Shown piece by piece: positions 1 to 37,156 of a stretch of 64,000 nucleotides of DNA; the stretch's first letter is position 1; each line of letters starts with the position of its first letter. The notes under the pieces are model-generated. The model worked only from the letters and a program-made list of their open reading frames with translations, was not told where the DNA came from and made no database searches. The position numbers and the translations under genes were made by a program. This DNA is from a virus, in IMG/VR virus record IMGVR_UViG_3300030103_003268, positions 1-64,000 of that record; one strand, given 5' to 3'.

Positions 1-135
1 TGATTCGGTTTTGTTTCCATCGCCATCAATATCTATATAATCAGGTTTTGCCGCTTTTAATTCTTCATCATCGGTCTTTTCAGTCCCACAATGTCCTTTT
101 TCTTCTTCCTTTCGGATAATATCTCTCCAACTCAT
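1..135 (-). CDS. Small protein, truncated by the window edge, with an EF-hand-like DxDGDG motif
   Basis: Manual translation MSWRDIIRKEEEKGHCGTEKTDDEELKAAKPDYIDIDGDGNKTES; its ATG overlaps the stop of the upstream ORF (ATGA). Confidence 0.65.
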   Translation of the reverse strand, partial: MSWRDIIRKEEEKGHCGTEKTDDEELKAAKPDYIDIDGDGNKTES

Positions 136-239
136 TTCTTCTCACCTGTTATTAAGTCTTTCTTTTGTTTTGCTTCTTCTTTGTCTAAACGCTTTGATTC
201 AGCGTCAAACCATGAATCTAAATAAGTGCATCTTGTCAT
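132..239 (-). CDS. 35-aa hypothetical protein
   Basis: Manual translation MTRCTYLDSWFDAESKRLDKEEAKQKKDLITGEKK; GGAGA RBS upstream; coupled to the next gene. Confidence 0.55.
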   Translation of the reverse strand: MTRCTYLDSWFDAESKRLDKEEAKQKKDLITGEKK

Positions 240-254
240 GTCAATTTCTCCAAA

Positions 255-911
255 TTAGAAATAATATCCTCTTCTTTCGGCTCTTAATTGACCTTCACTA
301 AATCCTCTATCCATATTTGCGCCCATTTCATTCATAGCAGCAACATATTCACTATATGAAATCTCTTCGTTCCTTAATTGCCTACTAAGTTCTTCGGCTC
401 TTTTCTCGTCCATTCTGTCATCATGCTTAATTCCGACATTAAATCCTAACCTGTTCATAACTAAAGCAGTAAAAGCAGTAGGGTCAGTTAATTCAAATGG
501 TAAATGTATATTTTCTATTTCAGGATAATCTCCGCCTACCCAATACGCTTCGGTGTCGGTGTCAAAATAAAGTATAATTTCTTTTCCTCTTGATTTGGCT
601 TTTACCGCTACACCAAAATGAAGATGACCACTAAAATCATCGGGGGTTTTTTCATTTATTAAATCAGCCACAAAACATTCAACACCCAAAGTATTCAAAG
701 CATCAATTCCTTTTTGAATATTAAATTGTTGAGCATCATTAGAGACAAAAAGACTACTAGCCTCTTTACTCCATGCGTTTTGCTTTAATCTTTCTTCTTC
801 TCCCTCCATTCCTGGATTACTAGCAGACCATTCCCATTCAAACTGCAAGTTCTTGGGCATAGAAGAGTATTTTTCGTTATCTTCCTTTTTAATCGTTGCT
901 TTCCATGTCAT
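255..911 (-). CDS. Hypothetical protein with an N-terminal W-x-x-[IT]-[IL]-K motif
   Basis: 218-aa ORF; AGGTGA RBS. Confidence 0.8.
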   Translation of the reverse strand: MTWKATIKKEDNEKYSSMPKNLQFEWEWSASNPGMEGEEERLKQNAWSKEASSLFVSNDAQQFNIQKGIDALNTLGVECFVADLINEKTPDDFSGHLHFGVAVKAKSRGKEIILYFDTDTEAYWVGGDYPEIENIHLPFELTDPTAFTALVMNRLGFNVGIKHDDRMDEKRAEELSRQLRNEEISYSEYVAAMNEMGANMDRGFSEGQLRAERRGYYF

Positions 912-954
912 AATATCACCTTAAAATTTCTCAAAAAAATGTGGCGGATTTTTT

Positions 955-1251
955 TCACCTATACTGTCTAATTTCTTTAAATCTATTAACATCAGCATAT
1001 CTATGAGTTCCTGCTCTTTTCTCTTTTGGTAAATCATAGCCGAGTTTCATAAGAGCCTCTTCTAAAACAATAAGATATTTCGGCATAGGAATATTTTTAT
1101 TTTTGTCTGTAATTCTAAATCCTCTATCTGCTCTTTCTGAATATTGCAGTAAATACTGATTAAAAGCCGCTTCATGCACCTGCTTTAAAGTCTCAATGAC
1201 TTCTTCTTCAACATCTGCTTCGGATTCTGCCTTTAAGATATTTTGCCACAT
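955..1251 (-). CDS. Hypothetical protein with N-terminus MWQNILK
   Basis: ORF track; ATG at 1251 follows an AAGTGA RBS-like sequence. Confidence 0.75.
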   Translation of the reverse strand: MWQNILKAESEADVEEEVIETLKQVHEAAFNQYLLQYSERADRGFRITDKNKNIPMPKYLIVLEEALMKLGYDLPKEKRAGTHRYADVNRFKEIRQYR

Positions 1252-1441
1252 AGTAATCACTTTTTCTCAAAATTTGGCTCGGAATTTTTTTGGCACTTGC
1301 GTCCTCATTTAAATTTTTTTATTTGTATTCCCAGGATAAAAACTTTTTCATTTAAAGTTGCTTGTTTAAAGATAATAAGTTTGGCCGCCGTGTAATAATG
1401 TTGTTATAACTAATCGGATTATCATAATTAATTTAATTATT

Positions 1442-1669
1442 TTAATTGCCAAAGTCTGTTAAAGTAGTTTGTTTATCATATCTATTAATAAAATCATTAA
1501 TATGGCTTTTTACCTGTTGTAGTTGCTGGCCCAATTCACCTAGTTTGGTAATACTGGCTATATCCATTTCCTTCAATTGTTTGCGTTTAGCCTTGATATC
1601 AGATAAAATAATAACAATCTCTTTATTGATACCCTGTAATAGTTCTAATGCCTTATCCTCACTAGACAT
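1442..1669 (-). CDS. Small coiled-coil protein with a C-terminal PIP-box-like motif
   Basis: 75 aa, heptad-like, ends QTTLTDFGN. Confidence 0.65.
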   Translation of the reverse strand: MSSEDKALELLQGINKEIVIILSDIKAKRKQLKEMDIASITKLGELGQQLQQVKSHINDFINRYDKQTTLTDFGN

Positions 1670-1839
1670 ACTGTATCATGTTATGGGAGTAGGCCATACC
1701 CTATAATGGTGGCGGTTTTACCCTTGTTTAATTAAAGATAATGCTTCAAAATAGGGCTTTTAAAGCATTTCGCTCTAAATGAGAAGAATTAAAAAATTTG
1801 AAACAAAGCCATATGGTTGTAGATTATGAATGCGGGAAG

Positions 1840-1997
1840 AGTTGTTAATAACTACCATTTTCATCTATTGTCTTGTTTTCATCTTCCTTTACAGTTTGCT
1901 ATAGAACGCTATTGGTAACTACAAAATGTTTGTTTATAGCCATCTATGATGAATAACTATCTAATGCAGAAACCCTAAATGATAGTTATTAACAACT
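1840..1997. repeat. ~160-bp ORF-less element with 21-bp terminal inverted repeats
   Basis: AGTTGTTAATAACTACCATTT (1840-1860) versus AAATGATAGTTATTAACAACT (1977-1997), one mismatch. Confidence 0.75.
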
Positions 1998-2044
1998 TTA
2001 CAACCATATGGTCGTAACTTTGAGTAATGACCCGAAGGCCGCCA

Positions 2045-2170
2045 TTAACGGCAATCGGGGCAAATCCAAACGATTCGCAATTCCTTAACCCAAGTATCAT
2101 TTCCAAATTGGTCGTAAAAACGAACAGTTCCATCAGCGTTGCATTCTTCACAATACATTGTCTCTTCCAT
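2045..2170 (-). CDS. 41-aa Zn-ribbon microprotein (cassette gene)
   Basis: Manual translation MEETMYCEECNADGTVRFYDQFGNDTWVKELRIVWICPDCR; two CxxC motifs. Confidence 0.7.
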   Translation of the reverse strand: MEETMYCEECNADGTVRFYDQFGNDTWVKELRIVWICPDCR

Positions 2171-2399
2171 GCTTAACCCGCAAATGGGCGTATTCATTGA
2201 GGTATTACCAAAGCACTACCATATGGTGTTGCTTTGCTATAACCCTGAAGTGGGACGGGAAGAATTACCTCTTTTCTTCCCGCCCCCGTATTCCCTCTAT
2301 TCCCTGTTTGTTTGGGTCATAGTGCCATAACGAGAGGCTCATGGCTAACGGGCCGCTTTTAGGGTGCTTACGGACTTCATGCCGTATTTGGTGAGTTAT

Positions 2400-2600
2400 T
2401 CAAAGCACACGGCCATTTGAGAAGTCTTCACCCCAAATGGACTTATATTGAGCCAAAAAGTATTGAGCAAAGCGCACAGCGTCAAAATTCCCATTATCAC
2501 GGGAAAACATATTAATCATATGATTAACAATATCTGCGTTAATATCACGCCATCGGGCAAGCATTTCAGCCATTTTCTTATAGTGTCGTCGTTGGAACAT
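2400..2600 (-). CDS. 66-aa hypothetical protein (cassette gene)
   Basis: MFQRRHYKKMAE...; TATA-like CCTTATAT about 25-30 nt upstream, right beside the repeat at 2651. Confidence 0.7.
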   Translation of the reverse strand: MFQRRHYKKMAEMLARWRDINADIVNHMINMFSRDNGNFDAVRFAQYFLAQYKSIWGEDFSNGRVL

Positions 2601-2716
2601 GATTAACCGCTTAAGACTCACATATAAGGTTTTATTACCAAAGTATGCAACCATATGGTTAGGCTTTGCATTAACCCCATATAGGGGCTTCACAGGGGAA
2701 TTAGCCGTGAAGAGTC

Positions 2717-3232
2717 TCATTCCTCCTCGGAACCCTCCATATCTGCTTTCGCAGGGGTTGGTTCAATTTGAGGAACCCCGTCTTTAACGGCTACGCCGTC
2801 CCAACGGTTGTCTTTGATTGACTTAACCATGTAGGCATGAGCCTTACCACGGAAAGAGTCCACCAATTCGCTGAATGAACCATATACTCCACCAGTTCGG
2901 CCATGTGGCACGATAACTGACAGAATCAAGTTGTGGTATTCAGTAGGGATTGCAGCAATAGCACCTGCCACGGTTTCCTCCACAGTCGCCAAAACAAGTT
3001 CCTGTTCGTCCGAGAGGGTTGATTCTCGCCCTCGTCGTGCCGCAGGAAAACCCTCCATAGTGGAGCCTATTGAACGAATTGCCGTCCAATAGGTGCTTCG
3101 TAGGTCGTCTGTTCCCGCATTATCGCCCAATGTGAGCGAAAGGAGAACAGCACTCAAGTTGTCGCTTTTTGGCTGTGTTTCAGCCCAAGCCCGCACTTTG
3201 TTTGTGTTCAGTGTCCAATTCTTCATCTTCAT
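2717..3232 (-). CDS. Hypothetical protein, paralog family A, copy 1
   Basis: Shares LRSTYWTAIRSIGS, FPAARRGRES, PHGRTGG and RWDG with 4210-4716; AGGTGA RBS. Confidence 0.9.
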   Translation of the reverse strand: MKMKNWTLNTNKVRAWAETQPKSDNLSAVLLSLTLGDNAGTDDLRSTYWTAIRSIGSTMEGFPAARRGRESTLSDEQELVLATVEETVAGAIAAIPTEYHNLILSVIVPHGRTGGVYGSFSELVDSFRGKAHAYMVKSIKDNRWDGVAVKDGVPQIEPTPAKADMEGSEEE

Positions 3233-3397
3233 ATTTCTTCACCTTTCCTTAAAAAAGATACTCTCACGCCGTTTTCCCCTGTGGAGCGATAATAAGGGTA
3301 TGGCATCGCATAAGGTTGTTTCCACGCAAAGCAAGAAACAACCATATGGTATTGCTTTGTTAATACCCTAAACAATACAATAAGTCAAAGAAGAGAC

Positions 3398-3652
3398 ATG
3401 CACGCAGACAAATCGCAGAAAATCGCTAATCTCTTAGTAAATACCTTCCCAAGCCTTCGGCCTTGGATTGAAGCCCAATACCATTCAGCCTTTTTGAAAG
3501 ATATGATGGTTTATGCCGACGAACCTAACGCTATGATTGCTATGTGCGAATTTGCGGCTTCTATTGAGGCTTTCGCTGATACTATCGCAGAAGTCTCATT
3601 TGATGAGATGATACGCATTATGACTGATATGGGATGGGAGGTGCTTGAATGA
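3398..3652 (+). CDS. 84-aa hypothetical protein (cassette gene)
   Basis: ORF starts about 50 nt after the repeat at 3342. Confidence 0.75.
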   Translation: MHADKSQKIANLLVNTFPSLRPWIEAQYHSAFLKDMMVYADEPNAMIAMCEFAASIEAFADTIAEVSFDEMIRIMTDMGWEVLE

Positions 3653-3783
3653 TTTCCCACTGCCCCACCTGTAAAAGAGAATTGGCTAAAGATGATTTTA
3701 TGTCCTTTGCCTTTATCCTTGGAGGAGACATTTGCCGCTATTGTCTTGATGATGAGCCTTCGGGCCAGTATAACAAAGTATGA
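3649..3783 (+). CDS. 44-aa Zn-finger microprotein
   Basis: Manual translation MISHCPTCKRELAKDDFMSFAFILGGDICRYCLDDEPSGQYNKV; GGAGGTG RBS; ATGA overlap. Confidence 0.65.
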   Translation: MISHCPTCKRELAKDDFMSFAFILGGDICRYCLDDEPSGQYNKV

Positions 3784-3853
3784 CCATATGGTTGCGGAAC
3801 TTTGTTTTCTGAAAGGAAACGCAACCCCATAACCGCATAACGCCGGATGAGGC

Positions 3854-4105
3854 ATGAAAGCAACCCTAACTCAAGATTTACTTACTGGAGAGTGCCGTAT
3901 TAGTATTAAAACCTGTTCGGAGGCCATCAACTACATGGGAGAAATCTTCGGCTTTATCAAAGATAATGGCTTTTATTGCCGAATGACCACTGATTTCTAT
4001 ACGGTCAATTTCACCATTCGTGGCGACGAGGACATAGCGGCCCGTGTCCCTAAAATCATGGGATTCATTAATGACATCACCTGTGGTCGCATTAAGCGTG
4101 ATTAA
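3854..4105 (+). CDS. 83-aa hypothetical protein (cassette gene)
   Basis: Fills the interval between repeats 3784 and 4137; followed by a GGCCTTCGGGCC hairpin. Confidence 0.7.
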   Translation: MKATLTQDLLTGECRISIKTCSEAINYMGEIFGFIKDNGFYCRMTTDFYTVNFTIRGDEDIAARVPKIMGFINDITCGRIKRD

Positions 4106-4209
4106 CGGCCTTCGGGCCAATTTAACCAAAGTAAGCCCATATGGTTGTGCTTTGCCAGTTGAAAACGGAACCCCACCCATAGGTGGGGCTGCGAGGGGAA
4201 AGACCCGCA

Positions 4210-4716
4210 TCATTCCTCTTCTTGACCTCCTTCAGCAGATTTAACCGCAGGTGGGGTCATAGTTGGGATTTCACCGTTCATAGAACCATCCCAACGACCT
4301 TCTTTGTAGCCCTTAACGAGCGCATCATAGGCTTTCTTACCCATTGAACGGGCAAAGGCCATGATATCTTCATAATCGCCACCAGTTCGCCCGTGAGGGA
4401 GAATAACGGTAGTAATGAGGTCAGGGTTAGTAATGCCCGCAAAGGCAGTAATAACCGCATTCTTCACAGAAGTCGCATTTAGGTCTACTTCTTCGGGCAA
4501 AGATGATTCTCGGCCTCGGCGGGCGGCTGGGAAATCGTCATAAGGACTCCCAATAGAACGAATAGCCGTCCAGTATGTAGACCGCAATTCGTCGTTATCC
4601 GTTGCATTTCCAAGTGTAATAGAAAGAGAAATGGCTTGACCCACATCTCCCCTATCTTCAAGTTCAAGCCATGCTTGAACCGCATTCGTGTTCTTAATCC
4701 AGTTGTCTTGCTTCAT
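4210..4716 (-). CDS. Hypothetical protein, paralog family A, copy 2
   Basis: Strong similarity to 2717-3232; GGAGG RBS before MKQDNW. Confidence 0.9.
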   Translation of the reverse strand: MKQDNWIKNTNAVQAWLELEDRGDVGQAISLSITLGNATDNDELRSTYWTAIRSIGSPYDDFPAARRGRESSLPEEVDLNATSVKNAVITAFAGITNPDLITTVILPHGRTGGDYEDIMAFARSMGKKAYDALVKGYKEGRWDGSMNGEIPTMTPPAVKSAEGGQEEE

Positions 4717-4859
4717 AATCAATTCCTCCAAAAAGGTTTGATGCGTCCGTTTTCCCCTCGGAGCAACTAATGGCGACCATAGGCGACTATGGTTGCTTTT
4801 TCATTAACACTCGCAAAGCGAAAAGCAACCATATGGTTGTAATTATGCTTTGCATTAAT

Positions 4860-5395
4860 AAAACCATAAAGAAGGCTACACTAAACGGACAGGGAAAAGC
4901 CTATATTGGTGCATTTCGTGCTAATTTGTCCGTTTAGTGGGTGAATACAAAACGCCGCCTACTCCATTCATATCCGACTAACTGCCTTACTGTTGTTTCC
5001 GTCTCTAATTCGGCATGCCTCCTTAGATTTGTTTCCTTTCGGGTCTTACTACGCTGTGTTTCGGCTTTGTTTCCGATTGATGTTTATGGCCAATCAACCA
5101 AGGGAATTTGAAAAGGGTGGGATGAAGAATTGGGTATCTCCAAGTATGATGCGATTGGGTCGCACTCACTTTTGAACGCTCCTTAGATTTCGTCTTAAGA
5201 GCCATACTACCGATTTCATGAAGTTAGTTTGTAGCCAACCGCCTTTTGAGCCTTAATCACTTTCACAGGGAACAATTAATCTGCCTCTTGGCCGTCATAA
5301 CTGCTATGTGTCCCACAACAGGAGAAATCGTCCATTACCCCCGTTCAAAAGGGCATTAATGGTAATCCCCTCCGAGGGAGCGACCCCCGAAGCAA
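4860..5395 (-). ncRNA. Candidate large structured non-coding RNA
   Basis: Cassette without a convincing ORF; perfect 13-bp stem (4879-4891/4927-4939), 12-nt direct repeat (5019, 5179), GAAA-capped hairpins, 5' hairpin like the family A leaders. Confidence 0.45.
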
Positions 5396-5522
5396 TAGAA
5401 CCGAGCGATTATCGCTTATGGTTCTCTATAAGCAAAGCAATATAGAACCATATGGTAATGCTTTGTTATTTACCCCAACGCTCCATTATTAAAGGCATTT
5501 GAAGGGGCAATCCGCTATTTCA

Positions 5523-5639
5523 CTACTCTTCCTCCTGTATATAAGCCATACTCAGCAAAGCGGCCTCAATGACCAGTCCGTTCTTATTACACAGTTTCAC
5601 AAGGGCTTTAGCCAATCCACACCAATCCATAGTCTTCAT
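5523..5639 (-). CDS. 38-aa microprotein (cassette gene)
   Basis: Manual translation MKTMDWCGLAKALVKLCNKNGLVIEAALLSMAYIQEEE; TTATAAATA next to the repeat at 5735. Confidence 0.55.
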   Translation of the reverse strand: MKTMDWCGLAKALVKLCNKNGLVIEAALLSMAYIQEEE

Positions 5640-5859
5640 GTTTATCTTAAGTGGGTATGTTCGCAACTTGTTGATTTAAATGTTTAATGTTTCAATTTAA
5701 ATTTTTAGAGGGTATTTATAACAAAGCAACAATACCATATGGTTTGATACTATCAAAGAGCGCAGAATATTCTTATTTAGCGATATTCAATGACACTGAA
5801 ATGGGGAGAATTTTCAACCCCCAAAAATCTGTCAAATTTGACAGGGTGTTTCTCAACTG

Positions 5860-6305
5860 TGGTTATATTAATTCGTATTCATATTCTAATATTCAATATT
5901 AGTATTATAGTAAAATAAATGGGTTGTCTCATGGTCGGGAGGGGATGAGACGAGACAACTCAGGGAAGAATCATTAAGGTTATGCAACATAAGTAAAAAT
6001 ATATTTCTATTATCTCATTATCTCATCATCTCATCATCATCATCTTCTTCTCTCTGCATAACCCCTTATTTTCTTAGGGGCTAGGGAGAGAGAAATATAT
6101 GGAACTTTGATGAGACGAGATGAGACAACTCTTTTTTGCGGGTTTCGTCAAGGTTTTGCAGGGTTGTGTTGCATAACCCCGTTGTCTCAAGATGAGACAA
6201 TAGGCGAGACAGTCTCAACGACGGGGAACCAAAAGTTATTTCATTTGGCGAACTATTGTTGTAAATAAAATCTATTTGATTCAACAAAAGAATTATCTCA
6301 CCATT
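5860..6305. repeat. Cluster of TGAGAY/RTCTCA short repeats plus an AT-rich tract; candidate origin or terminus
   Basis: GATGAGACGAGACAACTC at 5944, GATGAGACGAGATGAGACAACTC at 6109, TATCTCAT tandem at 6011-6043, inverted copies at 5923 and 6181-6220; lies at the strand switch. Confidence 0.6.
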
Positions 6306-6404
6306 TAATTAAAAATACAAAGATGAAACACATCGGAGTCGCAGGAAACTTTCTTGGTAAAATGTTGGTAATTCCCTCAAGGGAGGTGCATTCGGAGGCA
6401 TTTC

Positions 6405-6420
6405 TGGACTCCTTTATATA
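6405..6420 (+). promoter_or_regulatory. Archaeal-type promoter TGGACTCCTTTATATA
   Basis: Identical 16-mer at 15095 and 31887; contains a TTTATATA TATA box; 52 nt upstream of ATG 6472. Confidence 0.7.
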
Positions 6421-6471
6421 CCGAAAGACAACTGTTGAGAATACCCCGCAAAGGGGAAGGAGAGAATATAC

Positions 6472-6945
6472 ATGGATGATACCACATGGGAAAGCCTCAA
6501 AATTGAGGTGAACGAATACCTAGAAGCCGACACTACGCTTGATGCTGGATTGCGTCAAGTCGTTGAATTGAACCTGCAAATCGGGACGAACAACCCCGAT
6601 GAGCGAACTGCCGCCGAAGGTGCGCTTAAAGCACTTTTGAAGGGAAGAGACGGAACTCCGTTCCGCCGAGGCCAAAAGAGCGCAGTTCCAGCCGCAGTTC
6701 GTGTTTCTATTGACCGAATCTGTGGAGTTGTTGAAGAAGCCGCTATTGGCTACTACAACCACGATGCAGTTATTGGTGCAATTACAATGAAGCACATCAA
6801 ATCTGGTGGCGGAAACTTTGATGGCGCAGAAGATTACGCTTCTGCTGTCGTTAAGCGAACCCGAAACAACCTTGGCAAAATGTTCAAGGCTGGCGATTGG
6901 GACGGTAGCGTTGATTCCCTTTTAGGCGAATCAAGCGACCTTTGA
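6472..6945 (+). CDS. Hypothetical protein, distant member of paralog family A
   Basis: PFRRGQKS, HIKSGGG and GDWDG align with AARRGRES, HGRTGG and RWDG. Confidence 0.85.
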   Translation: MDDTTWESLKIEVNEYLEADTTLDAGLRQVVELNLQIGTNNPDERTAAEGALKALLKGRDGTPFRRGQKSAVPAAVRVSIDRICGVVEEAAIGYYNHDAVIGAITMKHIKSGGGNFDGAEDYASAVVKRTRNNLGKMFKAGDWDGSVDSLLGESSDL

Positions 6946-6992
6946 GATTAAAACCTCAAACAACCGCTTATCAGGTCAATGACCTGAACAAC

Positions 6993-7030
6993 GGGGAATA
7001 GGAGTCTAAGGACTCCTATTCTCCCCTTTT
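6993..7030 (+). terminator. Hairpin terminator
   Basis: GGGGAATAGGAGTC-TAAG-GACTCCTATTCTCCCC followed by TTTT. Confidence 0.6.
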
Positions 7031-7107
7031 CCACAAGGGGGAAGAGAGGCGCATGAAAATGCTTTGCTGGCAAGGCTTTCTCTCTTCTCCCGCCTTTGGG
7101 TGGTTTG

Positions 7108-7365
7108 ATGCGTTTAGTTGAAGAAGTCTTTGTCAAAACAAAAGAAGATTTAATTTGCCAGTCTTGCGGTGTTGATATACCAAAAGACAGCAACCATCTT
7201 CTTGAGTCTTATGTTCATCATGGCGTTATTTCAACTAGTCATTACTGTTTAAACCCAAAGTGCAATCCACCTAATAATGTTCGTTTGAAGTTATTTTGGG
7301 GAACACTAGCCACAGGCGTTTCTCTGTGGTTAATCTACTTTTTCTATCAAAACGCTGCGTTTTGA
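7108..7365 (+). CDS. Zn-finger protein with a C-terminal TM helix
   Basis: CxxC...HYCxxxxC followed by a hydrophobic segment. Confidence 0.6.
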   Translation: MRLVEEVFVKTKEDLICQSCGVDIPKDSNHLLESYVHHGVISTSHYCLNPKCNPPNNVRLKLFWGTLATGVSLWLIYFFYQNAAF

Positions 7366-7509
7366 ATCTATTCATTCAAAGTTTGGGGGGTGGCCCCGCA
7401 ACATATACGCCCTCGGCAGGTGGGGGTATGCTTCAACAGTCGCCAAGCGACATGGTTTCACTTTTTTAATTTGAAATGGTGTGGTTTTCTTCTGTTTAAG
7501 TATTTTAAC

Positions 7510-7593
7510 GCTGAGATGGCTGAGTTTGGTTAAAAGCGCAGGGCTTAAACTCCTGTCCGTATTGGTTCGCAGGTTCAAATCCTGCTCTCAGCA
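7510..7593 (+). tRNA. tRNA-Leu(TAA)
   Basis: Acceptor GCTGAGA/TCTCAGC, anticodon arm CAGGG-CTTAAAC-TCCTG, long variable arm, GGTTCAAATCC T arm. Confidence 0.88.
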
Positions 7594-7695
7594 CTTTTAC
7601 ATGGGGAAGGTTGAACAGGGGGCTAAAGAGTAATGACCGAGTAATCGGTTTTGTTCCCTTCCCCACCTATTCTCTATTTTTAAGAGGTAATAAAA

Positions 7696-9123
7696 ATGCA
7701 ACACACAAACGAACAAGAAGCAATTTTCAATTGCATAGAAAAAACAGACGACCACCTAATTATCAATGCAGGTGCGGGAACAGGAAAAACAACAACAATT
7801 GTTGAAGCAGCAAATCGTATCAATGGGGAGAAAGCCGCATTCTTGGCATTCAATAAATCTATTGCTACTGAATTAGCAGAAAGACTTCCAACTGGCGTAG
7901 AAGCGAAAACCTTTCACGCCTTTGGTTTCGCTGCGATTCGTGCCGCCGGTGTCAAAACAAAGGTGAACAATTTTAAGGTCAATAACATTATCAAAGAACT
8001 TCATGGTGCTGATTTCTACATCGCCCCACTAAAGAAACTTGTTTCTCTTGTTAAGGGAAGTATGGTTAATGGAACTGACAAGAAAGCCATCAATCAACTG
8101 ATTGATGAATACAATATCAACTTCAATTCAGACCGTGAAGAACGGATTGCAGTAGAATCAATACCTGCAATTCTCACGATGTGCCGAACACAAACCCATG
8201 TCATTGATTTTGATGATATGATTTGGATGCCTATTGTTAATGACTATCCTTTCCCAAAATACGATGTTTTGTTTGTTGATGAAGCACAAGATTTTAACGA
8301 AGTGCAACGAGAAATGATTTCTTTGTGCGTTAATGGCGGTCGCTGTATTATTGTTGGAGATAAAAACCAAGCAATTTACGGCTTCCGTGGTGCTGACTCA
8401 AACTCAATTGATATGTTTCGGCAACGGCTTCTCAAAGGAGAAAGAAAAATCAGCGAATTTCCTCTTTCAATTACTTGGCGCTGTCCTAATTCAGTGGTTC
8501 GTGAGGCTAACCGATATGTGCATGAGTTTAATGCACCTGATTTTGCCGAAGAAGGAGCAGTTATCGTAGATGCTCCATTCACACCACAACGAAATGATAT
8601 GGTTCTTTGCCGATACAATGCTCCTTTGGTGTCTGCTTTCTATGATTTGATTTCACAGGGCAAATCGGCTTATGTTCTTGGTCGTGATATGACGAAGGGT
8701 TTAATTACCGCCGTTCAAAAGATTTCTAAGAACAACCACATGGGCGTTGATGAGTTTTTGCAGTTGTTCCAAAAGGACTTTGCATATAACTATCAACGGC
8801 TTCTTGACCAAAACAAAGAGAATCAAGCGATGGCTCTTGAAGATAAGCGTGATTGTATTATGATTTTTGTTCAAAAAGCAACAACTGTTGGTGGAATCAT
8901 TGAAGAGATTAAGCGTGTCTTTGATGGAAATGATAAAGGTGAAATTATGCTTTCTACTGTTCACAAGGCTAAGGGTCTTGAAGCAGACAATGTTTATATT
9001 CTCGCAACTGAGCGAATGCCCCATCCTTATGGAAGTAAGGAAGAGAACAACATTTGCTATGTAGCGATTACACGGGCTAAAAAGAACTTGTTCTATGTTG
9101 GCCCAAAACCGGGAAAAGTTTGA
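7696..9123 (+). CDS. UvrD/Rep-like superfamily 1 helicase
   Basis: AGAGTGKT, VDEAQD, VGDKNQAIYGFRGA, STVHKAKGLE, YVAITRAK. Confidence 0.93.
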   Translation: MQHTNEQEAIFNCIEKTDDHLIINAGAGTGKTTTIVEAANRINGEKAAFLAFNKSIATELAERLPTGVEAKTFHAFGFAAIRAAGVKTKVNNFKVNNIIKELHGADFYIAPLKKLVSLVKGSMVNGTDKKAINQLIDEYNINFNSDREERIAVESIPAILTMCRTQTHVIDFDDMIWMPIVNDYPFPKYDVLFVDEAQDFNEVQREMISLCVNGGRCIIVGDKNQAIYGFRGADSNSIDMFRQRLLKGERKISEFPLSITWRCPNSVVREANRYVHEFNAPDFAEEGAVIVDAPFTPQRNDMVLCRYNAPLVSAFYDLISQGKSAYVLGRDMTKGLITAVQKISKNNHMGVDEFLQLFQKDFAYNYQRLLDQNKENQAMALEDKRDCIMIFVQKATTVGGIIEEIKRVFDGNDKGEIMLSTVHKAKGLEADNVYILATERMPHPYGSKEENNICYVAITRAKKNLFYVGPKPGKV

Positions 9124-18204: not shown

Positions 18205-19356
18205 ATGAAACTAAGAATTAAAAAACCAGATGATAGCCAACAGTATTTTGAAACAAATATTACCTGTGCTTCTTTCCAATTTAGAGAAATCATAACGGTT
18301 AATTTTATCCGGTCTTCTAAAGACCCAATCCAAGCAGGACTGGAAGCCTTTTGGAAGAACTTGATTTCTCCTAGAAAATCAAGAAGACATCTCTCTACTG
18401 GCTTCGGATATAAATTTAATCATATTATTTTTATTGAAGGCTGTCCTGTTGTTCTATCAAGAGAAGGCATTCGTTATCAATTAAATGGTAAATCATACAG
18501 CCTTTCAACTATTTGTTCAGCATTAGCAAGAATCACTTTCAAATCATGTTTTGAAAAGAAGCCAGAAAATTTACTTTCTGCGTTGTATTCAACTCTTAAT
18601 TTGCCAGAAAATGTCAAGTATTGTCTTGAGAATCGTGCGCCCTTTCATTTCTTTGAGGACTTTGAGAAACAAGAGGTTCGCTTGAATGTAGTTCAAATTG
18701 ATGATAAGATGCTTGCTATGGAGATAAGTGATGGTATTTGGGGAGAGATAACTCCAAAACAATTAGACTCTTACTGTAATTTTTATCTCCATAATAGGAG
18801 AAAGGGGTCTTGGAAATATCTTTCACCTAAATCACTATATACTAGGCTAATGGGCCGTGAGCCATCGCAGTCTGAATTAAAAGTCATGATTGCTTTTTTG
18901 ATGCAAAACAGAATGCAGGATATTGTAGACGCAAGGGCATTGGAATTAGTGGCTGATATGCTAGTTCAGCATAAAGGTAGACTATCTGCTGAATATGGTA
19001 ATGACGGAGTGTTAGAGACTCTCTTTGTTAGAGGCAAAGATTATGATTGGAAACTTACAAATAATAGATATAAGTCTGGCATTCAAATGGTTTCAACTTT
19101 TGTCTGGCAACCAATTGTTGAAATGGTTAAATCAGAGGAAGATGATTCTTCTTCTAAGATATTCACTGAACCAGATTGGAGAGGGCCAATTTGTATTGAC
19201 AATATGGCCGAAGGCTCTCCATTAGGCGACCAATTTGCTGCAAGAGCATTAGCCCTTCTAAACGACTCCTTTACAATAACAATAGTAAATACAATTAAGC
19301 GGTATCTTGCTGCTGAACCGAATAAATATAGGATTGATAGCAATGATTTGCGATGA
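18205..19356 (+). CDS. Conserved-looking hypothetical protein with a C-terminal GPICID...PLGDQ..ALALLND motif
   Basis: 383-aa ORF overlapping the TFB start. Confidence 0.8.
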   Translation: MKLRIKKPDDSQQYFETNITCASFQFREIITVNFIRSSKDPIQAGLEAFWKNLISPRKSRRHLSTGFGYKFNHIIFIEGCPVVLSREGIRYQLNGKSYSLSTICSALARITFKSCFEKKPENLLSALYSTLNLPENVKYCLENRAPFHFFEDFEKQEVRLNVVQIDDKMLAMEISDGIWGEITPKQLDSYCNFYLHNRRKGSWKYLSPKSLYTRLMGREPSQSELKVMIAFLMQNRMQDIVDARALELVADMLVQHKGRLSAEYGNDGVLETLFVRGKDYDWKLTNNRYKSGIQMVSTFVWQPIVEMVKSEEDDSSSKIFTEPDWRGPICIDNMAEGSPLGDQFAARALALLNDSFTITIVNTIKRYLAAEPNKYRIDSNDLR

Positions 19357-20200
19357 ATGTGGAAGCAACAATAACTCATTTGATGAGATACAAGGCGAAA
19401 GAGTTTGTAATAACTGTGGGCTTATTCTAGTCCAAGAGATGTTTGAAGAAACTGTTCATATTTTAGATACGGGCGGTAATCTAAAACATTCTGCTGATAA
19501 AGGTAGATTGGGTTCTGTTATTACTGGTAAAGGTTCTTACAAATTTAATAAGTTTGGTAAGAATAGTGTGATTCCTCAACACATACAAAATGCTTTGATG
19601 CATTGTAATATGATTTTGTCTCATGTTGCCCCTAACTTGGGTTTGAATGAGCGTGTTGAAAAATTATATCTTGACTTACATAACAAAGGTATTTTTGGAA
19701 GAAGTCAAATTGAAGCGAGAGCAACCGCAGTTGTTTTTTATGCTTTAAGAGAAAACGGAACACCACATACTTTTGCAGAAGTCTCGTCTGAGTTTAATGC
19801 TAACTTAAAAACAGTTAAGAGACTAGTTAGAAAAATCAATCAAGTTTTTAGAAACAAAGCCGCTTATAGTCCTATTAATCCACAGTATCTTTTAGAGAAG
19901 ACACTTAATGAGATTACAAGTGATTTAGTATTTAAAAGACAGACAATCAAAATATTAGAGTTTTTTGAAACAAAGGCCGCACAGAACACCTTCAATAAAG
20001 GAAGGTCATATTATGCGTCAATTGTTTGGATTTCAGCAAACATGAATGTAAATACGCTGATAACTCAGAATCTAATTACCGAGAAAACAGGATTTTCTCG
20101 CTTCAATATTAGAAGACAGACTAAAGCAATCTTATCTATGGTGGGTTTAAAACTAGCCAGCCAAGTGAAAGGAAAACAACTAAGTGAATTAGGTGAATGA
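19343..20200 (+). CDS. tfb: Transcription factor B (TFB/TFIIB)-like protein
   Basis: N-terminal Zn ribbon CDECG...GERVCNNCGLIL, GS B-reader region, two cyclin-like repeats. Confidence 0.85.
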   Translation: MICDECGSNNNSFDEIQGERVCNNCGLILVQEMFEETVHILDTGGNLKHSADKGRLGSVITGKGSYKFNKFGKNSVIPQHIQNALMHCNMILSHVAPNLGLNERVEKLYLDLHNKGIFGRSQIEARATAVVFYALRENGTPHTFAEVSSEFNANLKTVKRLVRKINQVFRNKAAYSPINPQYLLEKTLNEITSDLVFKRQTIKILEFFETKAAQNTFNKGRSYYASIVWISANMNVNTLITQNLITEKTGFSRFNIRRQTKAILSMVGLKLASQVKGKQLSELGE

Positions 20201-20983: not shown

Positions 20984-21540
20984 TGAGAAAAATATTAGTA
21001 ATTGGAGCAGGTGGAATTGGAAGTTTTCTGATTCCTACATTAGATAAAGTGGGCCTTTACCGCATTCATGTGGCTGACCCTGATTCGGTAGAAACAAAGA
21101 ACCTACCTTATCAAAACTTTAAGAAAGGCCATGTTGGGCAAAATAAGGCTCAGGTAATGATGGATTCCTACGAATCTGTCTCTACTTTTAGCAAATACCC
21201 AGTTTTGACTGAAAAACAAATGCAGGGCTATGACCTTGTGATTTGTTGTGTTGATAACTTGGGTGTGAGGCGAACCTTATACAACACAACCCTTAAATGG
21301 CTTGACTTACGAGCGCAAGGTAGAAATGCCGCACTTGTGAGTCATAAGGCCGACCCGAAGATGTATGATATGCTCTTAGCCGGAGAAGAAGGTTCATTCA
21401 GTTGCCAAGGGGATTCGTGGGATGGAACAAATAGTAATGTTCATTTTATGCAGGTCGCAATTGCAGGATTAGGCTCACAATGGATTCAAAGATATTTTAA
21501 TAAGGAAGAAGTGAGAGATTATATGGTGGTGAATGTATGA
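20980..21540 (+). CDS. ThiF/E1-like ubiquitin-activating adenylyltransferase
   Basis: VIGAGGIGS, DPDSVETKNLPYQ, GQNKA, CCVDN..R, candidate catalytic Cys in FSCQ. Confidence 0.88.
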   Translation: MMRKILVIGAGGIGSFLIPTLDKVGLYRIHVADPDSVETKNLPYQNFKKGHVGQNKAQVMMDSYESVSTFSKYPVLTEKQMQGYDLVICCVDNLGVRRTLYNTTLKWLDLRAQGRNAALVSHKADPKMYDMLLAGEEGSFSCQGDSWDGTNSNVHFMQVAIAGLGSQWIQRYFNKEEVRDYMVVNV

Positions 21541-22625
21541 GTGAAAGAAATTTTTGGACGGATGAGCAGGTGGCGTTTCTTGTTGTTTGTAGAACAAAAA
21601 GACAAACATGGGAACAGATTGCACTTTCTATGGAAAGTAAATTTGGCTTTTCAAGAAGTCCTTCTAATATTGCTAATAAATATCGTAGTCTATTTGATGG
21701 CGACCATGCCAAAGAATATACGCCCGAACAGTCAAAATTCATTATTGATTGCTATTTGAATCACTTCCAAACAAAAGTGATTCTTGAGGGTTATTTTGAA
21801 CAGTTTGGTCAGACCATTAATCCATCGGATATTGATAAAGTCGTAAAAAAGCATCTAGCGACTGAAAAGAAAGTAGATGCTGAAATTAAAACAATAAAAA
21901 CAAAAATTAAGGAGAGAAAAAAGATGAAAACTAACAGAACGGCCGCTAAGTGGTCAAAAGAAGAAGATGAGATGATTATGGCGTGTAAAAGCCGAAAGGA
22001 AGCACTGTCGCTCCAAATTGGGCGAACACAGGGAGCACTTCGTAATCGTTGGCAAAATTTGAAAGTAAAAGCAAAGGCAGTAAAACCTGTTGAGAAAGTT
22101 TCTCAGCCAAAAAAGGGCGCAAAGCGTGGACGAATGACAAATGTTGAATTAGAAATGATTCGCAATTGTAAAACGGTTGAAGAAGCATTGGCTTTGAATT
22201 TGCGAAAGCCTGAAACAATTATTCGGCAATTCGCTACTTTCAATTCAAAGAAGAAAGAAGTGGTTCTTGCAGTTAGACCTAAGCAAAATACTCATGGAAA
22301 CAAGGGTAGGAAATATACTCCCCGTTGGACAAAAGAACAGGACTATGACCTCATCTTGAACTTTTACGAACTTTCAATTGACGAAGCCCGAAACCGATTT
22401 AATCGGCCATACGGAGTTATCGCAAGCCGCTTAGAAAAGTTGGTTGATAGCACAAAGCCTGAGCATATCTCTATGCTTATGGAGGCTTCAAAGGAAATCA
22501 AGAGTCGCAAGAAGGCACAGAACCCAACGCCCAAAAAGAGCCGCAGAACACTACGCAAAGAGCGAAAGAAGGCTAAGAAAGAGGCTAAGTTGAAGGCCAA
22601 GTTGCAGAAAATCCGAGGTGAATGA
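21537..22625 (+). CDS. Multi-Myb/SANT-like HTH DNA-binding protein
   Basis: Repeated WTDEQ, YTPEQ, WSKEED and WTKEQD units; basic C-terminus. Confidence 0.7.
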   Translation: MSERNFWTDEQVAFLVVCRTKRQTWEQIALSMESKFGFSRSPSNIANKYRSLFDGDHAKEYTPEQSKFIIDCYLNHFQTKVILEGYFEQFGQTINPSDIDKVVKKHLATEKKVDAEIKTIKTKIKERKKMKTNRTAAKWSKEEDEMIMACKSRKEALSLQIGRTQGALRNRWQNLKVKAKAVKPVEKVSQPKKGAKRGRMTNVELEMIRNCKTVEEALALNLRKPETIIRQFATFNSKKKEVVLAVRPKQNTHGNKGRKYTPRWTKEQDYDLILNFYELSIDEARNRFNRPYGVIASRLEKLVDSTKPEHISMLMEASKEIKSRKKAQNPTPKKSRRTLRKERKKAKKEAKLKAKLQKIRGE

Positions 22626-35467: not shown

Positions 35468-37156
35468 ATGATAATTAGTAGAATGAATGATGGAAATAGA
35501 ATATACAAATCGTGGAGAGAGAACGGAGAGAAGAAATATGAGATTATTCCTTTCCGGCCTTATTTTTATGTAAAGGAAGACAGCGCAGAACCATTTGAAT
35601 ATAAGCCGAGTAAATATATTAGTCGGGAATTTGAGTATGTTCGTGGTGATTGGGTTAATCTTAACAATGAACCTTTAAAGAAAGTAATTGTTGAGACTTC
35701 TCACGATATGCGAAAAGCAAAGGATATGTTCGGTGAAACCTATGAAGCCGATGTTCCTTTTCACTTTCGGTATTGTGTAGATGAATTACATGAAATGCCT
35801 GAATATAAAATGCGTAAGTGGTATTGGGATATGGAATGGCAACAAGGCGGTGAATATCACGACCAATTGACTACAATTGTTGTTTATGATAACTATGATG
35901 AAGAATATCTTCAATGGAGTTGGTTTCCTAATGAATTTGAAGAGAATTTATATACGGGTGAAATGGATAAATCAATTAGCAATTCATTACCAAAATTTAA
36001 TTCTTGGGTTTTTGAAACTGAAAAAGATATGATTGAACATTTCTTTACAGAAATGATTATTTACGACCCCGATATGTTAATTGCTTGGTTTGGTCATTTT
36101 GCTGATTTACCAAAGTTGTTTGAACGGGCTTGTGCGGTGGGTCTTGACCCTCGCATTATTTCACCCACGGCGACCATTAAGGGAGTAAAGACAGTAAAAG
36201 ATGGCTATGAGTTTAAATATTCAGAGAAAGGTTTTTCTCCAATTGAACAACCTATTGGTGGGAGAATTACTCTTTCTTTGGACTTGGCATTTGAAAGACA
36301 ATGGAATGATTCTCAAAGAGGAACACTACCTTCTCTTTCTCTTGATTATATCGGTGAAACTGTTCTTGATAAGAAGAAGTTAGTATCGGAAAAGTTTCCA
36401 GACACCAATGAATTTTATCGCAGGGCTTGGTTAGAAGATACAGAAACATATCTCAAGTATGCTTTGAGAGATGTTGAATTGATGGTTGAGATTGATGAAA
36501 CTAACTTTTGTAGTGAAGCAATCCTTTCTCTTCAACGACTGTTGAAAGCACCATTTGATGCTTGTTTTTATGCAAGCCATATGGGTTCTATTTACTTTAT
36601 GCGAAACGCTACTTGGAAAGCACCAACTGGTAGTAAAGTGGATAAAAGACAAGAATACGAAGGTGCGATGATTTATGACCCATTAAGTGAAGAAACAAAC
36701 GGATTACATTTAAATGTAGCCGCCTTTGATTTTGCTGGTCTATATCCTAGTATGATGATTGCTCGCAATATTAGTTGGGAAACTAAGTCAGTAGAACCTA
36801 CTGAATTTGCGGTTAATATTCTCACCCCAAGAGACTTTAGCGAAACAAAGCATGAGCAGATACTTTATTACAAAACAGATAAACTCGGCCTACTGCCGAG
36901 AGCCGTTCTTGAATTGAAGGAGTTGCGAAATGAATATAAACGACTGATGCGAGAGGCAAGAGAAACGGACAATGGCGAGTATGCAAAGTGGTATAACAAT
37001 CAAATGGCAGTAAAGCGACTAATGGCCTCTTTTTATGGCATTGTTGCTTTTCAGGGCTTTGGTTGGGCTGATGTTGATTTAGCGGCATCTATTACTGCAA
37101 GTGCAAGAGAAGCAATTAGATTAGCGGCCTTTGCTGCAAAGGAGATGGAAGAATGA
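35468..37156 (+). CDS. polB: Family B DNA polymerase, N-terminal part (exonuclease, motifs A and B)
   Basis: WDMEW, YALRDV, FDFAGLYPS, QMAVKRLMASFYG. Confidence 0.93.
   Translation: MIISRMNDGNRIYKSWRENGEKKYEIIPFRPYFYVKEDSAEPFEYKPSKYISREFEYVRGDWVNLNNEPLKKVIVETSHDMRKAKDMFGETYEADVPFHFRYCVDELHEMPEYKMRKWYWDMEWQQGGEYHDQLTTIVVYDNYDEEYLQWSWFPNEFEENLYTGEMDKSISNSLPKFNSWVFETEKDMIEHFFTEMIIYDPDMLIAWFGHFADLPKLFERACAVGLDPRIISPTATIKGVKTVKDGYEFKYSEKGFSPIEQPIGGRITLSLDLAFERQWNDSQRGTLPSLSLDYIGETVLDKKKLVSEKFPDTNEFYRRAWLEDTETYLKYALRDVELMVEIDETNFCSEAILSLQRLLKAPFDACFYASHMGSIYFMRNATWKAPTGSKVDKRQEYEGAMIYDPLSEETNGLHLNVAAFDFAGLYPSMMIARNISWETKSVEPTEFAVNILTPRDFSETKHEQILYYKTDKLGLLPRAVLELKELRNEYKRLMREARETDNGEYAKWYNNQMAVKRLMASFYGIVAFQGFGWADVDLAASITASAREAIRLAAFAAKEMEE

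What the first reader, a model, noticed from the sequence alone, without database searches (positions are those of the whole stretch)
1804..5750. Array of gene cassettes delimited by palindromic CCATATGG repeats (integron- or PeSL-like)
Seen in sequence: ten palindromic sites (CCATATGG core, usually with CAAAG...CTTTG outer arms) within 4 kb, spaced 195, 215, 432, 691, 442, 353, 692, 619 and 287 bp. I noticed only one other CCATATGG in the window, inside polB and without arms. Most intervals hold a self-contained unit: an AT-rich promoter-like stretch beside the repeat, one or two short genes (or an ORF-less structured segment) and often a closing hairpin. Units face both directions and look more GC-rich than the rest of the genome. 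Inference: the repeats act as recombination or shuffling sites, as operators for an early host-takeover or anti-defence region, or as both. The nearest analogies I know are integron attC sites and the promoter-stem-loop elements of T4-like phages. I know of no described equivalent in archaeal marine viruses. No recombinase is encoded in this window.
Basis: partly seen in the sequence, partly recalled or inferred. Interest (0 to 1): 0.88.

Follow-up and report, generated by a model that had tools for sequence, protein, structure and literature searches.

The report
Palindrome-bounded promoter gene cassettes, magrovirus
A 94-kb ocean virus of archaea keeps its small accessory genes as self-contained promoter-gene-hairpin units separated by one invariant 10-letter palindrome, and related viruses have gained, lost, swapped and flipped these units at that palindrome.

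Summary
Ten CCATATGG cores lie at 1809-5742, against 0.85 expected per 64 kb. They form the only cluster in the 94,476-bp genome, which looks like a group B magrovirus.

The same array occurs in at least 53 non-redundant viral contigs (353 unique sites). The 8-bp core is almost never mutated: 321 armed exact cores against 10 armed one-mismatch cores.

Each unit reads: half core, arm hairpin with CTTTG in its loop, TATA-like box, gene, GC hairpin, arm, half core. Long-ORF ATGs peak sharply 36-42 nt (mode 37-38) after the arm, which fits leaderless archaeal promoters.

Comparison with relatives shows insertion, loss, transposition, inversion and allele replacement of units. Homology-block ends lie a median 24 bp from a core, against 125 bp for random points.

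No tyrosine or serine recombinase is found in the genome. Cassette proteins are almost all ORFans.

My best reading is a PeSL-like composite terminator/operator/promoter junction that also serves as the crossover point. It is not an integron.

I found no mention of it in the three magrovirus papers searched. A looser analogue has been described in the haloarchaeal virus HGTV-1.

This scan has found and followed up the same element before in other magrovirus genomes (e1-5359081, e1-5985201, e1-5769696, e1-5887225). My independent tests agree with those reports.

The parts
1804..1816 (.). Junction site 1, the array end on the - strand side. The CAAAG arm abuts the core directly, and there is no arm on the other side.
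   Evidence: The same end signature (core followed at once by CTTTG and an A/T run) is conserved in L009-L011, L013, L014, L151 and L239.
1817..2003 (.). Unit F: an ORF-less, AT-rich 195-bp unit with a 15-bp perfect terminal inverted repeat (1840-1854 and ending at 1997).
   Evidence: It is conserved as the last unit in L009, L010, L011 and L049.
2004..2022 (.). Junction site 2: core plus right arm.
   Evidence: A right-arm hairpin is predicted.
2045..2197 (-). Zn-ribbon mini-protein cassette. The likely true start is the internal ATG at 2168-2170, exactly 38 nt after the arm of site 3.
   Evidence: ORF; Zn_Ribbon_YjdM, E 2.5e-4; distance.
2209..2236 (.). Junction site 3: a full palindrome with 5-nt spacers.
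2400..2600 (-). Cassette gene (about 66 aa, from the ATG at 2598-2600, 38 nt after the arm of site 4), followed by a hairpin-rich 3' region at 2237-2399. The longer ORF 2400-2720 runs through site 4 and is probably over-called.
   Evidence: The unit is homologous at 74-75% in L009, L010 and L013.
2639..2668 (.). Junction site 4.
2717..3232 (-). Family A paralogue 1 (171 aa), in the 691-bp unit. It has a roughly 100-nt leader with a Shine-Dalgarno sequence.
   Evidence: The AF2 model has pLDDT 89 and is all-helical, with no informative fold match.
3327..3359 (.). Junction site 5: a divergent junction, with gene starts on both sides and twin arm hairpins.
   Evidence: DNA fold z-score -4.1.
3398..3783 (+). 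Two overlapping small genes, 3398-3652 (84 aa) and 3649-3783 (44 aa, 4-Cys). The first ATG lies 38 nt after the arm, and the stop codon abuts core 6.
   Evidence: The unit is present in L009 and L010.
3774..3804 (.). Junction site 6.
   Evidence: A 7-bp right-arm stem is predicted.
3854..4105 (+). An 83-aa gene in the 353-bp unit. This unit is absent from the closest relatives, so it is an insertion of exactly one unit plus one core.
4127..4154. Junction site 7: a convergent junction with two gene ends. The palindrome is nevertheless intact.
4210..4731 (-). Family A paralogue 2 (about 168-173 aa), in the 692-bp unit.
   Evidence: It is 48% identical to paralogue 1.
4814..4852 (.). Junction site 8, with twin arm hairpins.
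   Evidence: z-score -3.2.
4837..5447 (-). Unit D: no convincing ORF. It is a candidate structured RNA that ends in a 13-bp perfect hairpin.
   Evidence: (z-score -2.4; no Rfam family). It is conserved at 73-88% in five relatives.
5433..5465 (.). Junction site 9.
   Evidence: z-score -2.3.
5523..5639 (-). A 38-aa gene with an acidic C-terminal tail (unit G, 287 bp). Relative to the window, this unit is transposed in L009 and inverted in L010.
5722..5757 (.). Junction site 10, the array end next to the strand-switch region. Its outer side has a small separate dyad in place of a normal arm.
   Evidence: conserved in relatives.
6472..6945 (+). Family A paralogue 3 (157 aa), outside the array. It is the first gene of the + strand arm and the gene most consistently associated with arrays.
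   Evidence: It is found in 25 of 52 array loci, at a median 827 bp from the array.

Best explanation
The ten sites are the joints of a hyperplastic accessory-gene block in a group B magrovirus. Each joint is a composite, two-fold symmetric element. The 3' GC hairpin of one unit comes first. An arm hairpin follows, whose stem starts at the core's GG and whose loop holds CAAAG or CTTTG. Next is the invariant core ACCATATGGT, then a second arm hairpin, then an A-rich/ACC stretch and a TATA-like box. In about half of the units the ATG follows 37-38 nt after the arm, which points to a leaderless archaeal promoter. The element therefore most likely ends or insulates transcription of one unit and starts the next. 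The palindrome would then be a binding site for a dimeric factor that has not been identified. Because every unit carries the same half core at both ends, recombination within the core moves, inserts, deletes, replaces or flips whole expression-ready units. This works like the PeSL elements of T4-type phages. Shown here: the motif and its invariance, the unit anatomy, the fixed arm-to-ATG distance, the hairpin statistics and breakpoints at the cores. Inferred: promoter and terminator activity, protein binding, and the recombination route. For that route I favour short-homology or template-switch events using viral or host repair enzymes over a dedicated recombinase.
For: Enrichment and clustering. 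Five more 66-97 kb records each hold one cluster of 4-7 cores, and the control pattern finds none. Breadth: at least 119 viral stretches, 53 non-redundant arrays and 353 unique sites. A distant family A member also sits in an array with the same core. Cellular genomes give only chance-level single hits plus one mis-binned viral contig. Core invariance: 321 armed exact cores against 10 armed one-mismatch cores. Promoter geometry: ATGs opening ORFs of 35 or more codons peak 36-42 nt after the arm, at 89 of 336 armed ends. The background is 0-3 per position, and ATGs opening short frames show no peak. Three window genes sit at exactly 38 nt. Genes in the rest of the genome carry Shine-Dalgarno sequences instead. 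3' hairpins: mean MFE is -12.2 kcal/mol on 3' sides against -6.2 on 5' sides (p = 1e-19). Arm hairpins: perfect stems of 5 bp or more occur in 34% of half-sites against 7.7% with permuted partners. There are 87 distinct stem sequences, and CTTTG lies in the loop in 87% of them. Shuffling: unit maps differ between relatives. Homology blocks end within 4-36 bp of core centres, and include a swap, an inversion and single-unit insertions. Of 485 block ends inside arrays, 47% lie within 20 bp of a core against 12% for random points (median 24 against 125 bp). Identity is mosaic: unit D is 87.5% identical to L013 but 83% to L009, while the flank is about 80% and 90% respectively. No integrase or resolvase is present. 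An ERCC4 nuclease, a PD-(D/E)XK nuclease, a UvrD helicase and two ATP-dependent ligases are present. Assembly artefacts are unlikely, because the shared exact sequence is only about 10 bp. Identical arrays also recur in independent samples (L013/L015, L047/L105, L029/L040/L133).
Against: Near-perfect invariance of an 8-10 bp core is stricter than usual for an operator and would suit an enzyme recognition site. Convergent junctions serve no promoter, yet they keep a perfect palindrome (site 7 here; 16 of 114 junctions overall). Core-to-arm spacing varies from 5 to 10 nt, which is awkward for a single rigid dimer that reads both the core and the arms. Ten base pairs of identity is short for classical homologous recombination. 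About half of the units have longer leaders with Shine-Dalgarno sequences (family A, the 353-bp unit), so the leaderless promoter is not universal. Only 5-6 of the window's 10 sites fold clearly into arm hairpins.
Confidence: 0.65

Rival explanations
1. The sites are targets of a dedicated site- or structure-specific recombination system. An unidentified enzyme would recognise the invariant core and the twin arm hairpins, then cut and rejoin at the centre. Candidates are a viral protein such as family A, or a host protein. Because the site is symmetric, such an enzyme would produce excision, integration and inversion. This would make the array an integron-like platform without a known integrase.
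For: The core is almost invariant. Arm structure is conserved while stem sequence varies, as in integron attC sites. Insertions consist of exactly one unit plus one core, and inversions are bounded by cores. The palindrome is intact at convergent junctions. Family A is the only gene family consistently tied to arrays. It has 326 clusters at 50% identity and no known fold.
Against: No tyrosine or serine recombinase is found in the whole genome. Pfam scans of 105 of its proteins gave no HUH or transposase hit. The family A model is a plain helical bundle with no nuclease or recombinase features. Arrays are stable between close relatives, so events are rare. No variant core co-varying with family A was seen, although only one distant member could be examined.
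Confidence: 0.15
2. The element acts mainly as RNA. Read-through transcripts from either strand would fold into two hairpins flanking AUAU. That structure would be a processing or termination signal that trims transcripts into stable single-unit mRNAs, comparable to the RNase III sites between T7 early genes. Recombination at the sites would then be a by-product.
For: Stem complementarity is kept while stem sequence changes. The element gives the same RNA motif on both strands, which suits units that can be flipped. 3' sides are strongly structured. Among stem mismatches, G-T types outnumber A-C types 43 to 22 on the strand read outward from the core.
Against: If transcription starts at the ATG downstream of the arm, a unit's own 5' arm is not transcribed. 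The invariant core lies mostly between the hairpins rather than within them. The strand compositional bias can explain the G-T excess. No Rfam family matches.
Confidence: 0.12
3. The palindromes are replication-origin or packaging binding sites (iterons), and the genes between them are incidental.
For: The array adjoins the strand-switch region and the minimum of cumulative GC skew.
Against: Sites sit precisely at gene boundaries, with fixed geometry to start codons. The number and spacing of sites vary freely among relatives. A separate repeat family at 5900-6300 is a better origin candidate.
Confidence: 0.03

Closest known systems
PeSL (promoter-early stem-loop) cassettes in the hyperplastic regions of T4-type phages (Arbiol et al. 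2010, PMC2839356; Comeau et al. 2014, PMC4122927)
   Same: Both are repeated intergenic composites of a stem-loop plus a strong host-type promoter. Both are concentrated in one plastic region, mostly upstream of ORFans. Indels, replacements and shuffling between related genomes map to the elements (for the definition; here).
   Different: This promoter is archaeal TATA-type and often leaderless, not sigma-70 type. It has an invariant 10-bp perfect palindrome with arms at the centre, which PeSLs lack. Units lie in both orientations, and inversions are seen. Mini-circles could not be tested. Shared identity is only about 10 bp.
Conserved 'TATA box plus inverted repeat' intergenic motif of the haloarchaeal myovirus HGTV-1 (Sencilo et al. 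2013, as summarised in PMC3950731)
   Same: It belongs to an archaeal tailed virus. A repeated motif with TATA-like boxes and an inverted repeat precedes most small ORFs of one genome arm. Its authors proposed that it regulates transcription and mediates shuffling. I confirmed the motif in NC_021328 at 128-143 kb.
   Different: The HGTV-1 element is a roughly 100-bp direct repeat with a 10-bp stem and 3-nt loop, and all copies point the same way. Its sequence is unrelated and has no symmetric core. I know of no comparative evidence there for gain, loss or inversion at the element. The original paper is not held in the library.
Integron cassette arrays (IntI plus attC)
   Same: Both have single-gene cassettes bounded by imperfect palindromes whose structure is better conserved than their sequence. 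In both, cassettes are gained and lost at the site.
   Different: There is no integrase here. These cassettes carry their own promoters and lie in both orientations. The site has an invariant central palindrome rather than R/L boxes.

Membership tests
PeSL regulatory cassettes (T4-type phages) | Repeated intergenic motif concentrated in a hyperplastic region, mostly upstream of ORFans | tested here: met
   The genome holds a single cluster. Cassette ORFs fall into 95 protein families, of which one has a solid Pfam hit.
PeSL regulatory cassettes (T4-type phages) | Contains a sigma-70 consensus early promoter (-35/-10) | tested here: not met
   The host is archaeal. The element has a TATA-like box with the ATG 37-38 nt after the arm, so it is analogous but not the same promoter class.
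PeSL regulatory cassettes (T4-type phages) | Stem-loop acting as a terminator or attenuator | tested here: inconclusive
   Hairpins are predicted and significantly enriched on 3' sides and in the arms. Termination itself was not measured.
PeSL regulatory cassettes (T4-type phages) | Indels, replacements and shuffling between related genomes map to the elements | tested here: met
PeSL regulatory cassettes (T4-type phages) | Excised mini-circles | not testable with these tools
Integron | Adjacent IntI tyrosine recombinase | tested here: not met
   PF00589 has no match at E <= 1 in the whole 94-kb genome, while the control genomes all match.
Integron | Promoterless, co-oriented cassettes read from one Pc promoter | tested here: not met
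   Units have their own promoter-like elements. Junctions are 77 tandem, 21 divergent and 16 convergent.
Integron | attC sites with R''/L''-L'/R' boxes | tested here: not met
   The site is an arm hairpin, an invariant ACCATATGGT core and a second arm hairpin.
Invertase or shufflon systems (Hin/Gin, Rci) | Serine or tyrosine invertase gene near the inverted repeats | tested here: not met
   PF00239 and PF00589 are both absent.
Archaeal BRE/TATA promoter giving leaderless mRNA | A/T-rich TATA-like box about 26-30 nt upstream of the start, with the ATG at or near +1 and no Shine-Dalgarno sequence | tested here: inconclusive
   The sequence geometry is strongly non-random, but transcription starts were not mapped.
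HGTV-1-type intergenic motif | TATA-like box plus inverted repeat before most ORFs of one genome arm | tested here: met
   The kind of element is the same, but its sequence and symmetry are unrelated.

The most novel reading that the evidence does not exclude
The invariant palindrome with structure-conserved twin hairpins is the target of a new, still unidentified recombination machinery that captures, excises and flips expression-ready gene cassettes. The enzyme could be the array-linked family A proteins or a host enzyme. This would be an integron-like cassette platform of archaeal viruses without any known integrase.
Probability: 0.15. Interest if true: 0.9.

Novelty: new variant of a known kind. 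Interest (0 to 1): 0.62.

Why it matters
Magroviruses are among the most abundant archaeal viruses in the surface ocean, and their hosts (Poseidoniales) are uncultured. The array matters for four reasons.

- It gives a sequence-defined promoter architecture, with a fixed arm-TATA-ATG geometry, for a host whose transcription signals have not been measured.
- It marks where the viruses keep a very open pool of accessory genes: 232 nucleotide families among 314 units, nearly all ORFans. These are natural candidates for host-takeover or anti-defence functions.
- It shows that modular shuffling at composite regulatory junctions, known from T4-type phages, also operates in archaeal viruses. Here the junction carries a strictly conserved palindrome that permits inversion.
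- It offers a simple marker, clustered ACCATATGGT, for recognising this virus group and its plastic region in metagenomes.

Tried and rejected
Two viral-contig scans with distant members found nothing. One metagenome locus was found, and it carries the same core. I therefore had no means to look for a variant core that co-varies with family A.
- Family A function: no Pfam, NCBIfam, PDB-sequence, Foldseek or ESM Atlas lead. VIA-align gave only generic three-helix-bundle matches at Z below 8.
- Rfam: no family in 1-8000 apart from the tRNA.
- GenBank phages: no nucleotide similarity to the array.
- Host operator idea: the strict palindrome pattern in 185,579 prokaryote genomes gave 18 hits. These were chance-level singletons in unrelated bacteria plus one mis-binned viral contig, and none was in Poseidoniales.
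- Restriction-site idea: CCATATGG is neither avoided nor enriched outside the array (1 observed, 0.6 expected).
- Origin or iteron idea: rejected because the sites are tied to gene boundaries.
- The original HGTV-1 paper is not held in the library.
- Searching the genome for Myb Pfam models found nothing. The Myb-like ORF was located by its tryptophan repeat pattern instead.

Full report
**Observation.** The window holds eleven CCATATGG cores. The eleventh, at 36577, lies inside polB and has no arms. Dinucleotide-preserving shuffles give 0.85 matches per window. The window is the first 64 kb of a 94,476-bp IMG/VR virus record rated complete by CheckV. In that whole record, cores with a CAAAG arm occur only at 2004-5742. 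The array is GC-richer than the rest of the window, 0.44-0.47 against about 0.33-0.40.

**What the virus is.** The genome carries tRNA-Leu and tRNA-Arg, a ribonucleotide reductase, a Cpn60-type chaperonin, an ATP-dependent ligase and a split family B polymerase. It also has tailed-virus head and tail genes. This matches the group B magroviruses of Philosof et al. 2017 (PMC5434244). The array is the first block of the minus-strand arm. It sits beside a non-coding strand-switch region at the minimum of cumulative GC skew.

**Anatomy of a joint.**
- The core extends to ACCATATGGT; the flanking T is present in 92% of half-sites.
- A CTTTG arm lies 5-10 nt away on each side.
Stems that start at the core's GG and close with ACC, with CTTTG in the loop, reach 5 perfect base pairs or more in 34% of 689 half-sites. 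With partners permuted among sites the figure is 7.7%. For 7 bp or more it is 10% against 0.7%.
- There are 87 different stem sequences, so complementarity is kept while sequence changes.
- In this window, sites 5, 8 and 9 fold as twin hairpins with z-scores of -4.1, -3.2 and -2.3. Sites 2, 6 and 10 show one arm hairpin. Sites 3 and 7 prefer a single hairpin across the whole palindrome.

**Anatomy of a unit.**
- Reading outward from the core on the side where a gene begins, the arm is followed by an A-rich stretch ending in ACC and then a TATA-like octamer.
- ATG codons that open a frame of at least 35 codons pile up 36-42 nt after the arm (mode 37-38). This holds for 89 of 336 armed unit ends, against 0-3 per position elsewhere. 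ATGs that open short frames show no peak.
- In the window, the genes starting at 3398, 2600 (minus strand) and 2170 (minus strand, an internal ATG of the Zn-ribbon ORF) sit at exactly 38 nt and lack a Shine-Dalgarno sequence. Most genes elsewhere in the genome have one.
- This geometry is what a TATA box about 26-30 nt upstream of a leaderless start would give. That reading rests on established knowledge of archaeal promoters and was not measured here.
- Other units have longer leaders with Shine-Dalgarno sequences: the two family A genes and the 353-bp unit.
- On the side where a gene ends, the 50 nt next to the arm fold much better than on the start side. Mean MFE is -12.2 against -6.2 kcal/mol, and 46% against 5% fold at -12 kcal/mol or below. 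Many of these hairpins have UUCG-type loops.
- A unit is therefore: half core, arm, promoter, gene(s) or an ORF-less segment, GC hairpin, arm, half core.
- Site 5 joins two gene starts and site 7 joins two gene ends. Across all arrays, junctions are 77 tandem, 21 divergent and 16 convergent.

**Conservation.**
From these I extracted 53 non-redundant arrays and 353 unique sites.
- Five further 66-97 kb records each hold one cluster of 4-7 cores, and the control pattern finds none.
- Within arrays, 321 exact cores carry at least one arm. Only 10 one-mismatch cores do, and only 2 of those have both arms.
- In 185,579 prokaryote genomes, a strict form of the palindrome gives 18 hits. These are chance-level singletons in unrelated bacteria plus one marine contig with a 7-site array that is plainly a mis-binned virus.
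- The element is therefore specific to this virus group. It is not a host chromosomal operator in this form.

**Shuffling.**
- I cut seven related genomes at the cores and clustered the pieces. This gives different unit strings: the window reads G D A x H C E y F, L009 reads I D G A H C J E F, L010 reads I D G(inverted) K A H C J E F, and L011 reads D. C... A F. Here x and y are the window's 353-bp and 215-bp units, which have no counterpart in these relatives, and dots mark units unique to one genome.
- Uncut pairwise alignments confirm that homology blocks stop 4-36 bp from core centres. They show a swap of G and D, an inversion of G bounded by two cores, exchange of the positions of the two family A units, and insertions of exactly one unit plus one core.
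- Over 38 array pairs, 485 block ends inside arrays lie a median 24 bp from a core, against 125 bp for random points. Within 20 bp the fractions are 47% and 12% (Mann-Whitney p about 1e-36). The pairs are not independent.
- Identities are mosaic. Unit D of the window is closer to L013 (87.5%) than to L009 (83.1%), although the flank shows the reverse (80.5% against 89.9%). Units G, H and E are only 74-78% identical to L009 and L010 beside flanks at about 90%.
- Mis-assembly is an unlikely cause. The exact shared sequence is about 10 bp, well below assembler k-mers. The same arrays also recur in independent samples.

**Content.**
- The 314 units (median 512 bp) fall into 232 nucleotide families, of which 183 are singletons.
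- Their longest ORFs form 95 protein families. One has a solid Pfam match, Kyano_Gp96, a cyanophage protein of unknown function. Thirteen match PHROGs of unknown function.
- Family A is the exception. It accounts for 37 of 171 unit representatives, with two copies in most arrays and a third copy just outside (6472-6945 here). It is the only flanking gene widely conserved next to arrays.
- Family A has 326 clusters at 50% identity in a 1.8-billion-protein library. Its AF2 model is confident (pLDDT 89) and all-helical, with no informative structural or sequence relative.

**Mechanism.**
- No tyrosine or serine recombinase is detectable in the genome. Pfam scans of 105 of its proteins, 82 through the alignment route and 23 singly, gave no transposase or HUH enzyme.
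- The genome does encode a UvrD helicase, an ERCC4-type nuclease, a PD-(D/E)XK nuclease and two ATP-dependent ligases.
- I therefore favour rare short-homology or template-switch recombination at protein-bound or hairpin-forming joints, as proposed for PeSLs.
- A dedicated activity cannot be excluded. Three features would suit an enzyme site better than an operator: the near-absolute invariance of the core, its persistence at convergent joints where it serves no promoter, and the structure-conserved arms.
- An RNA-level role for the twin hairpins is a further rival.

**Comparison with known systems.**
- PeSLs are repeated composites of a strong sigma-70 early promoter and a stem-loop terminator. 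They are concentrated upstream of ORFans in hyperplastic regions, and they are the points of indels and replacements between related phages (PMC2839356; PMC4122927). The present element works the same way. It differs in having an archaeal promoter, a symmetric invariant core and units in both orientations.
- In the haloarchaeal myovirus HGTV-1, a TATA-plus-inverted-repeat motif before most ORFs of one arm was compared to PeSLs by its authors (PMC3950731). I found it to be a roughly 100-bp co-oriented direct repeat of unrelated sequence.
- Integron membership fails on the integrase, on the promoterless co-oriented cassettes and on the form of the site.
- The three magrovirus papers I searched do not mention repeats, palindromes or promoters. 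Cassette, recombination and TFIIB terms, each checked in a subset of them, were also absent.

**Status within this scan.** The same element has already been found and followed up in several other magrovirus genomes, with the same overall conclusion. My tests were run independently on this genome and agree with those reports. I add three formal statistics: arm-hairpin covariation, the arm-to-ATG distance and core invariance.

**Verdict.** This is a real, widespread and strongly constrained element. It is a new variant of PeSL-type modular shuffling in archaeal viruses. The molecular roles of the palindrome are inferred, not shown.

Noticed in passing
window 19307-20200 (+): A 297-aa divergent TFB/TFIIB homologue. 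It has an N-terminal TFIIB Zn ribbon (E 1.4e-5) and a cyclin repeat. NCBIfam PRK00423 matches at E 1.4e-11 over residues 78-282, and there are PDB TFIIB/TFB core hits. A virus-encoded general transcription factor could set promoter specificity. TFIIB and TFB are not mentioned in the founding magrovirus paper, and TFIIB is absent from a second one.
   Followed up: partly
window 5900-6300: A non-coding strand-switch region with at least 8 copies of an ATGAGAC-type repeat in both orientations, plus AT-rich stretches. It lies at the minimum of cumulative GC skew and is a candidate replication origin or master control region.
   Followed up: partly
window 1817-2003: The terminal ORF-less 195-bp unit has a 15-bp perfect inverted repeat near both ends. 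It is conserved as the last unit in several relatives. Its function is unknown.
   Followed up: partly
window 4837-5447 (-): A 611-nt unit without a convincing ORF, conserved at 73-88% in five relatives. RNA fold z-score is -2.4, it ends in a 13-bp perfect hairpin, and no Rfam family matches. It is a candidate non-coding RNA cassette.
   Followed up: partly
whole genome outside the array (6001-94476): Strong avoidance of GATATC (1 observed, 25.9 expected), GTATAC (0 observed, 8.5 expected) and CCATGG (4 observed, 16.5 expected). This suggests pressure from host restriction systems.
   Followed up: no
window 21537-22625 (+): A 362-aa protein with an N-terminal Myb/SANT-like repeat, located between a ThiF/E1-like gene and a JAB-type gene. 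It is a possible sequence-specific DNA binder.
   Followed up: no
window 2717-3232, 4210-4731 and 5523-5639; family A alignment A4: Many array-encoded proteins end in an acidic EEE-type tail, and several proteins of this genome start with a W-containing N-terminal motif. The meaning is unknown.
   Followed up: no
L151 (NZ_NZTP01000027.1, labelled Altibacter sp. MAG): A 14.8-kb contig in a bacterial MAG carries a 7-site array with the magrovirus end signature. It is most likely a mis-binned viral contig.
   Followed up: partly
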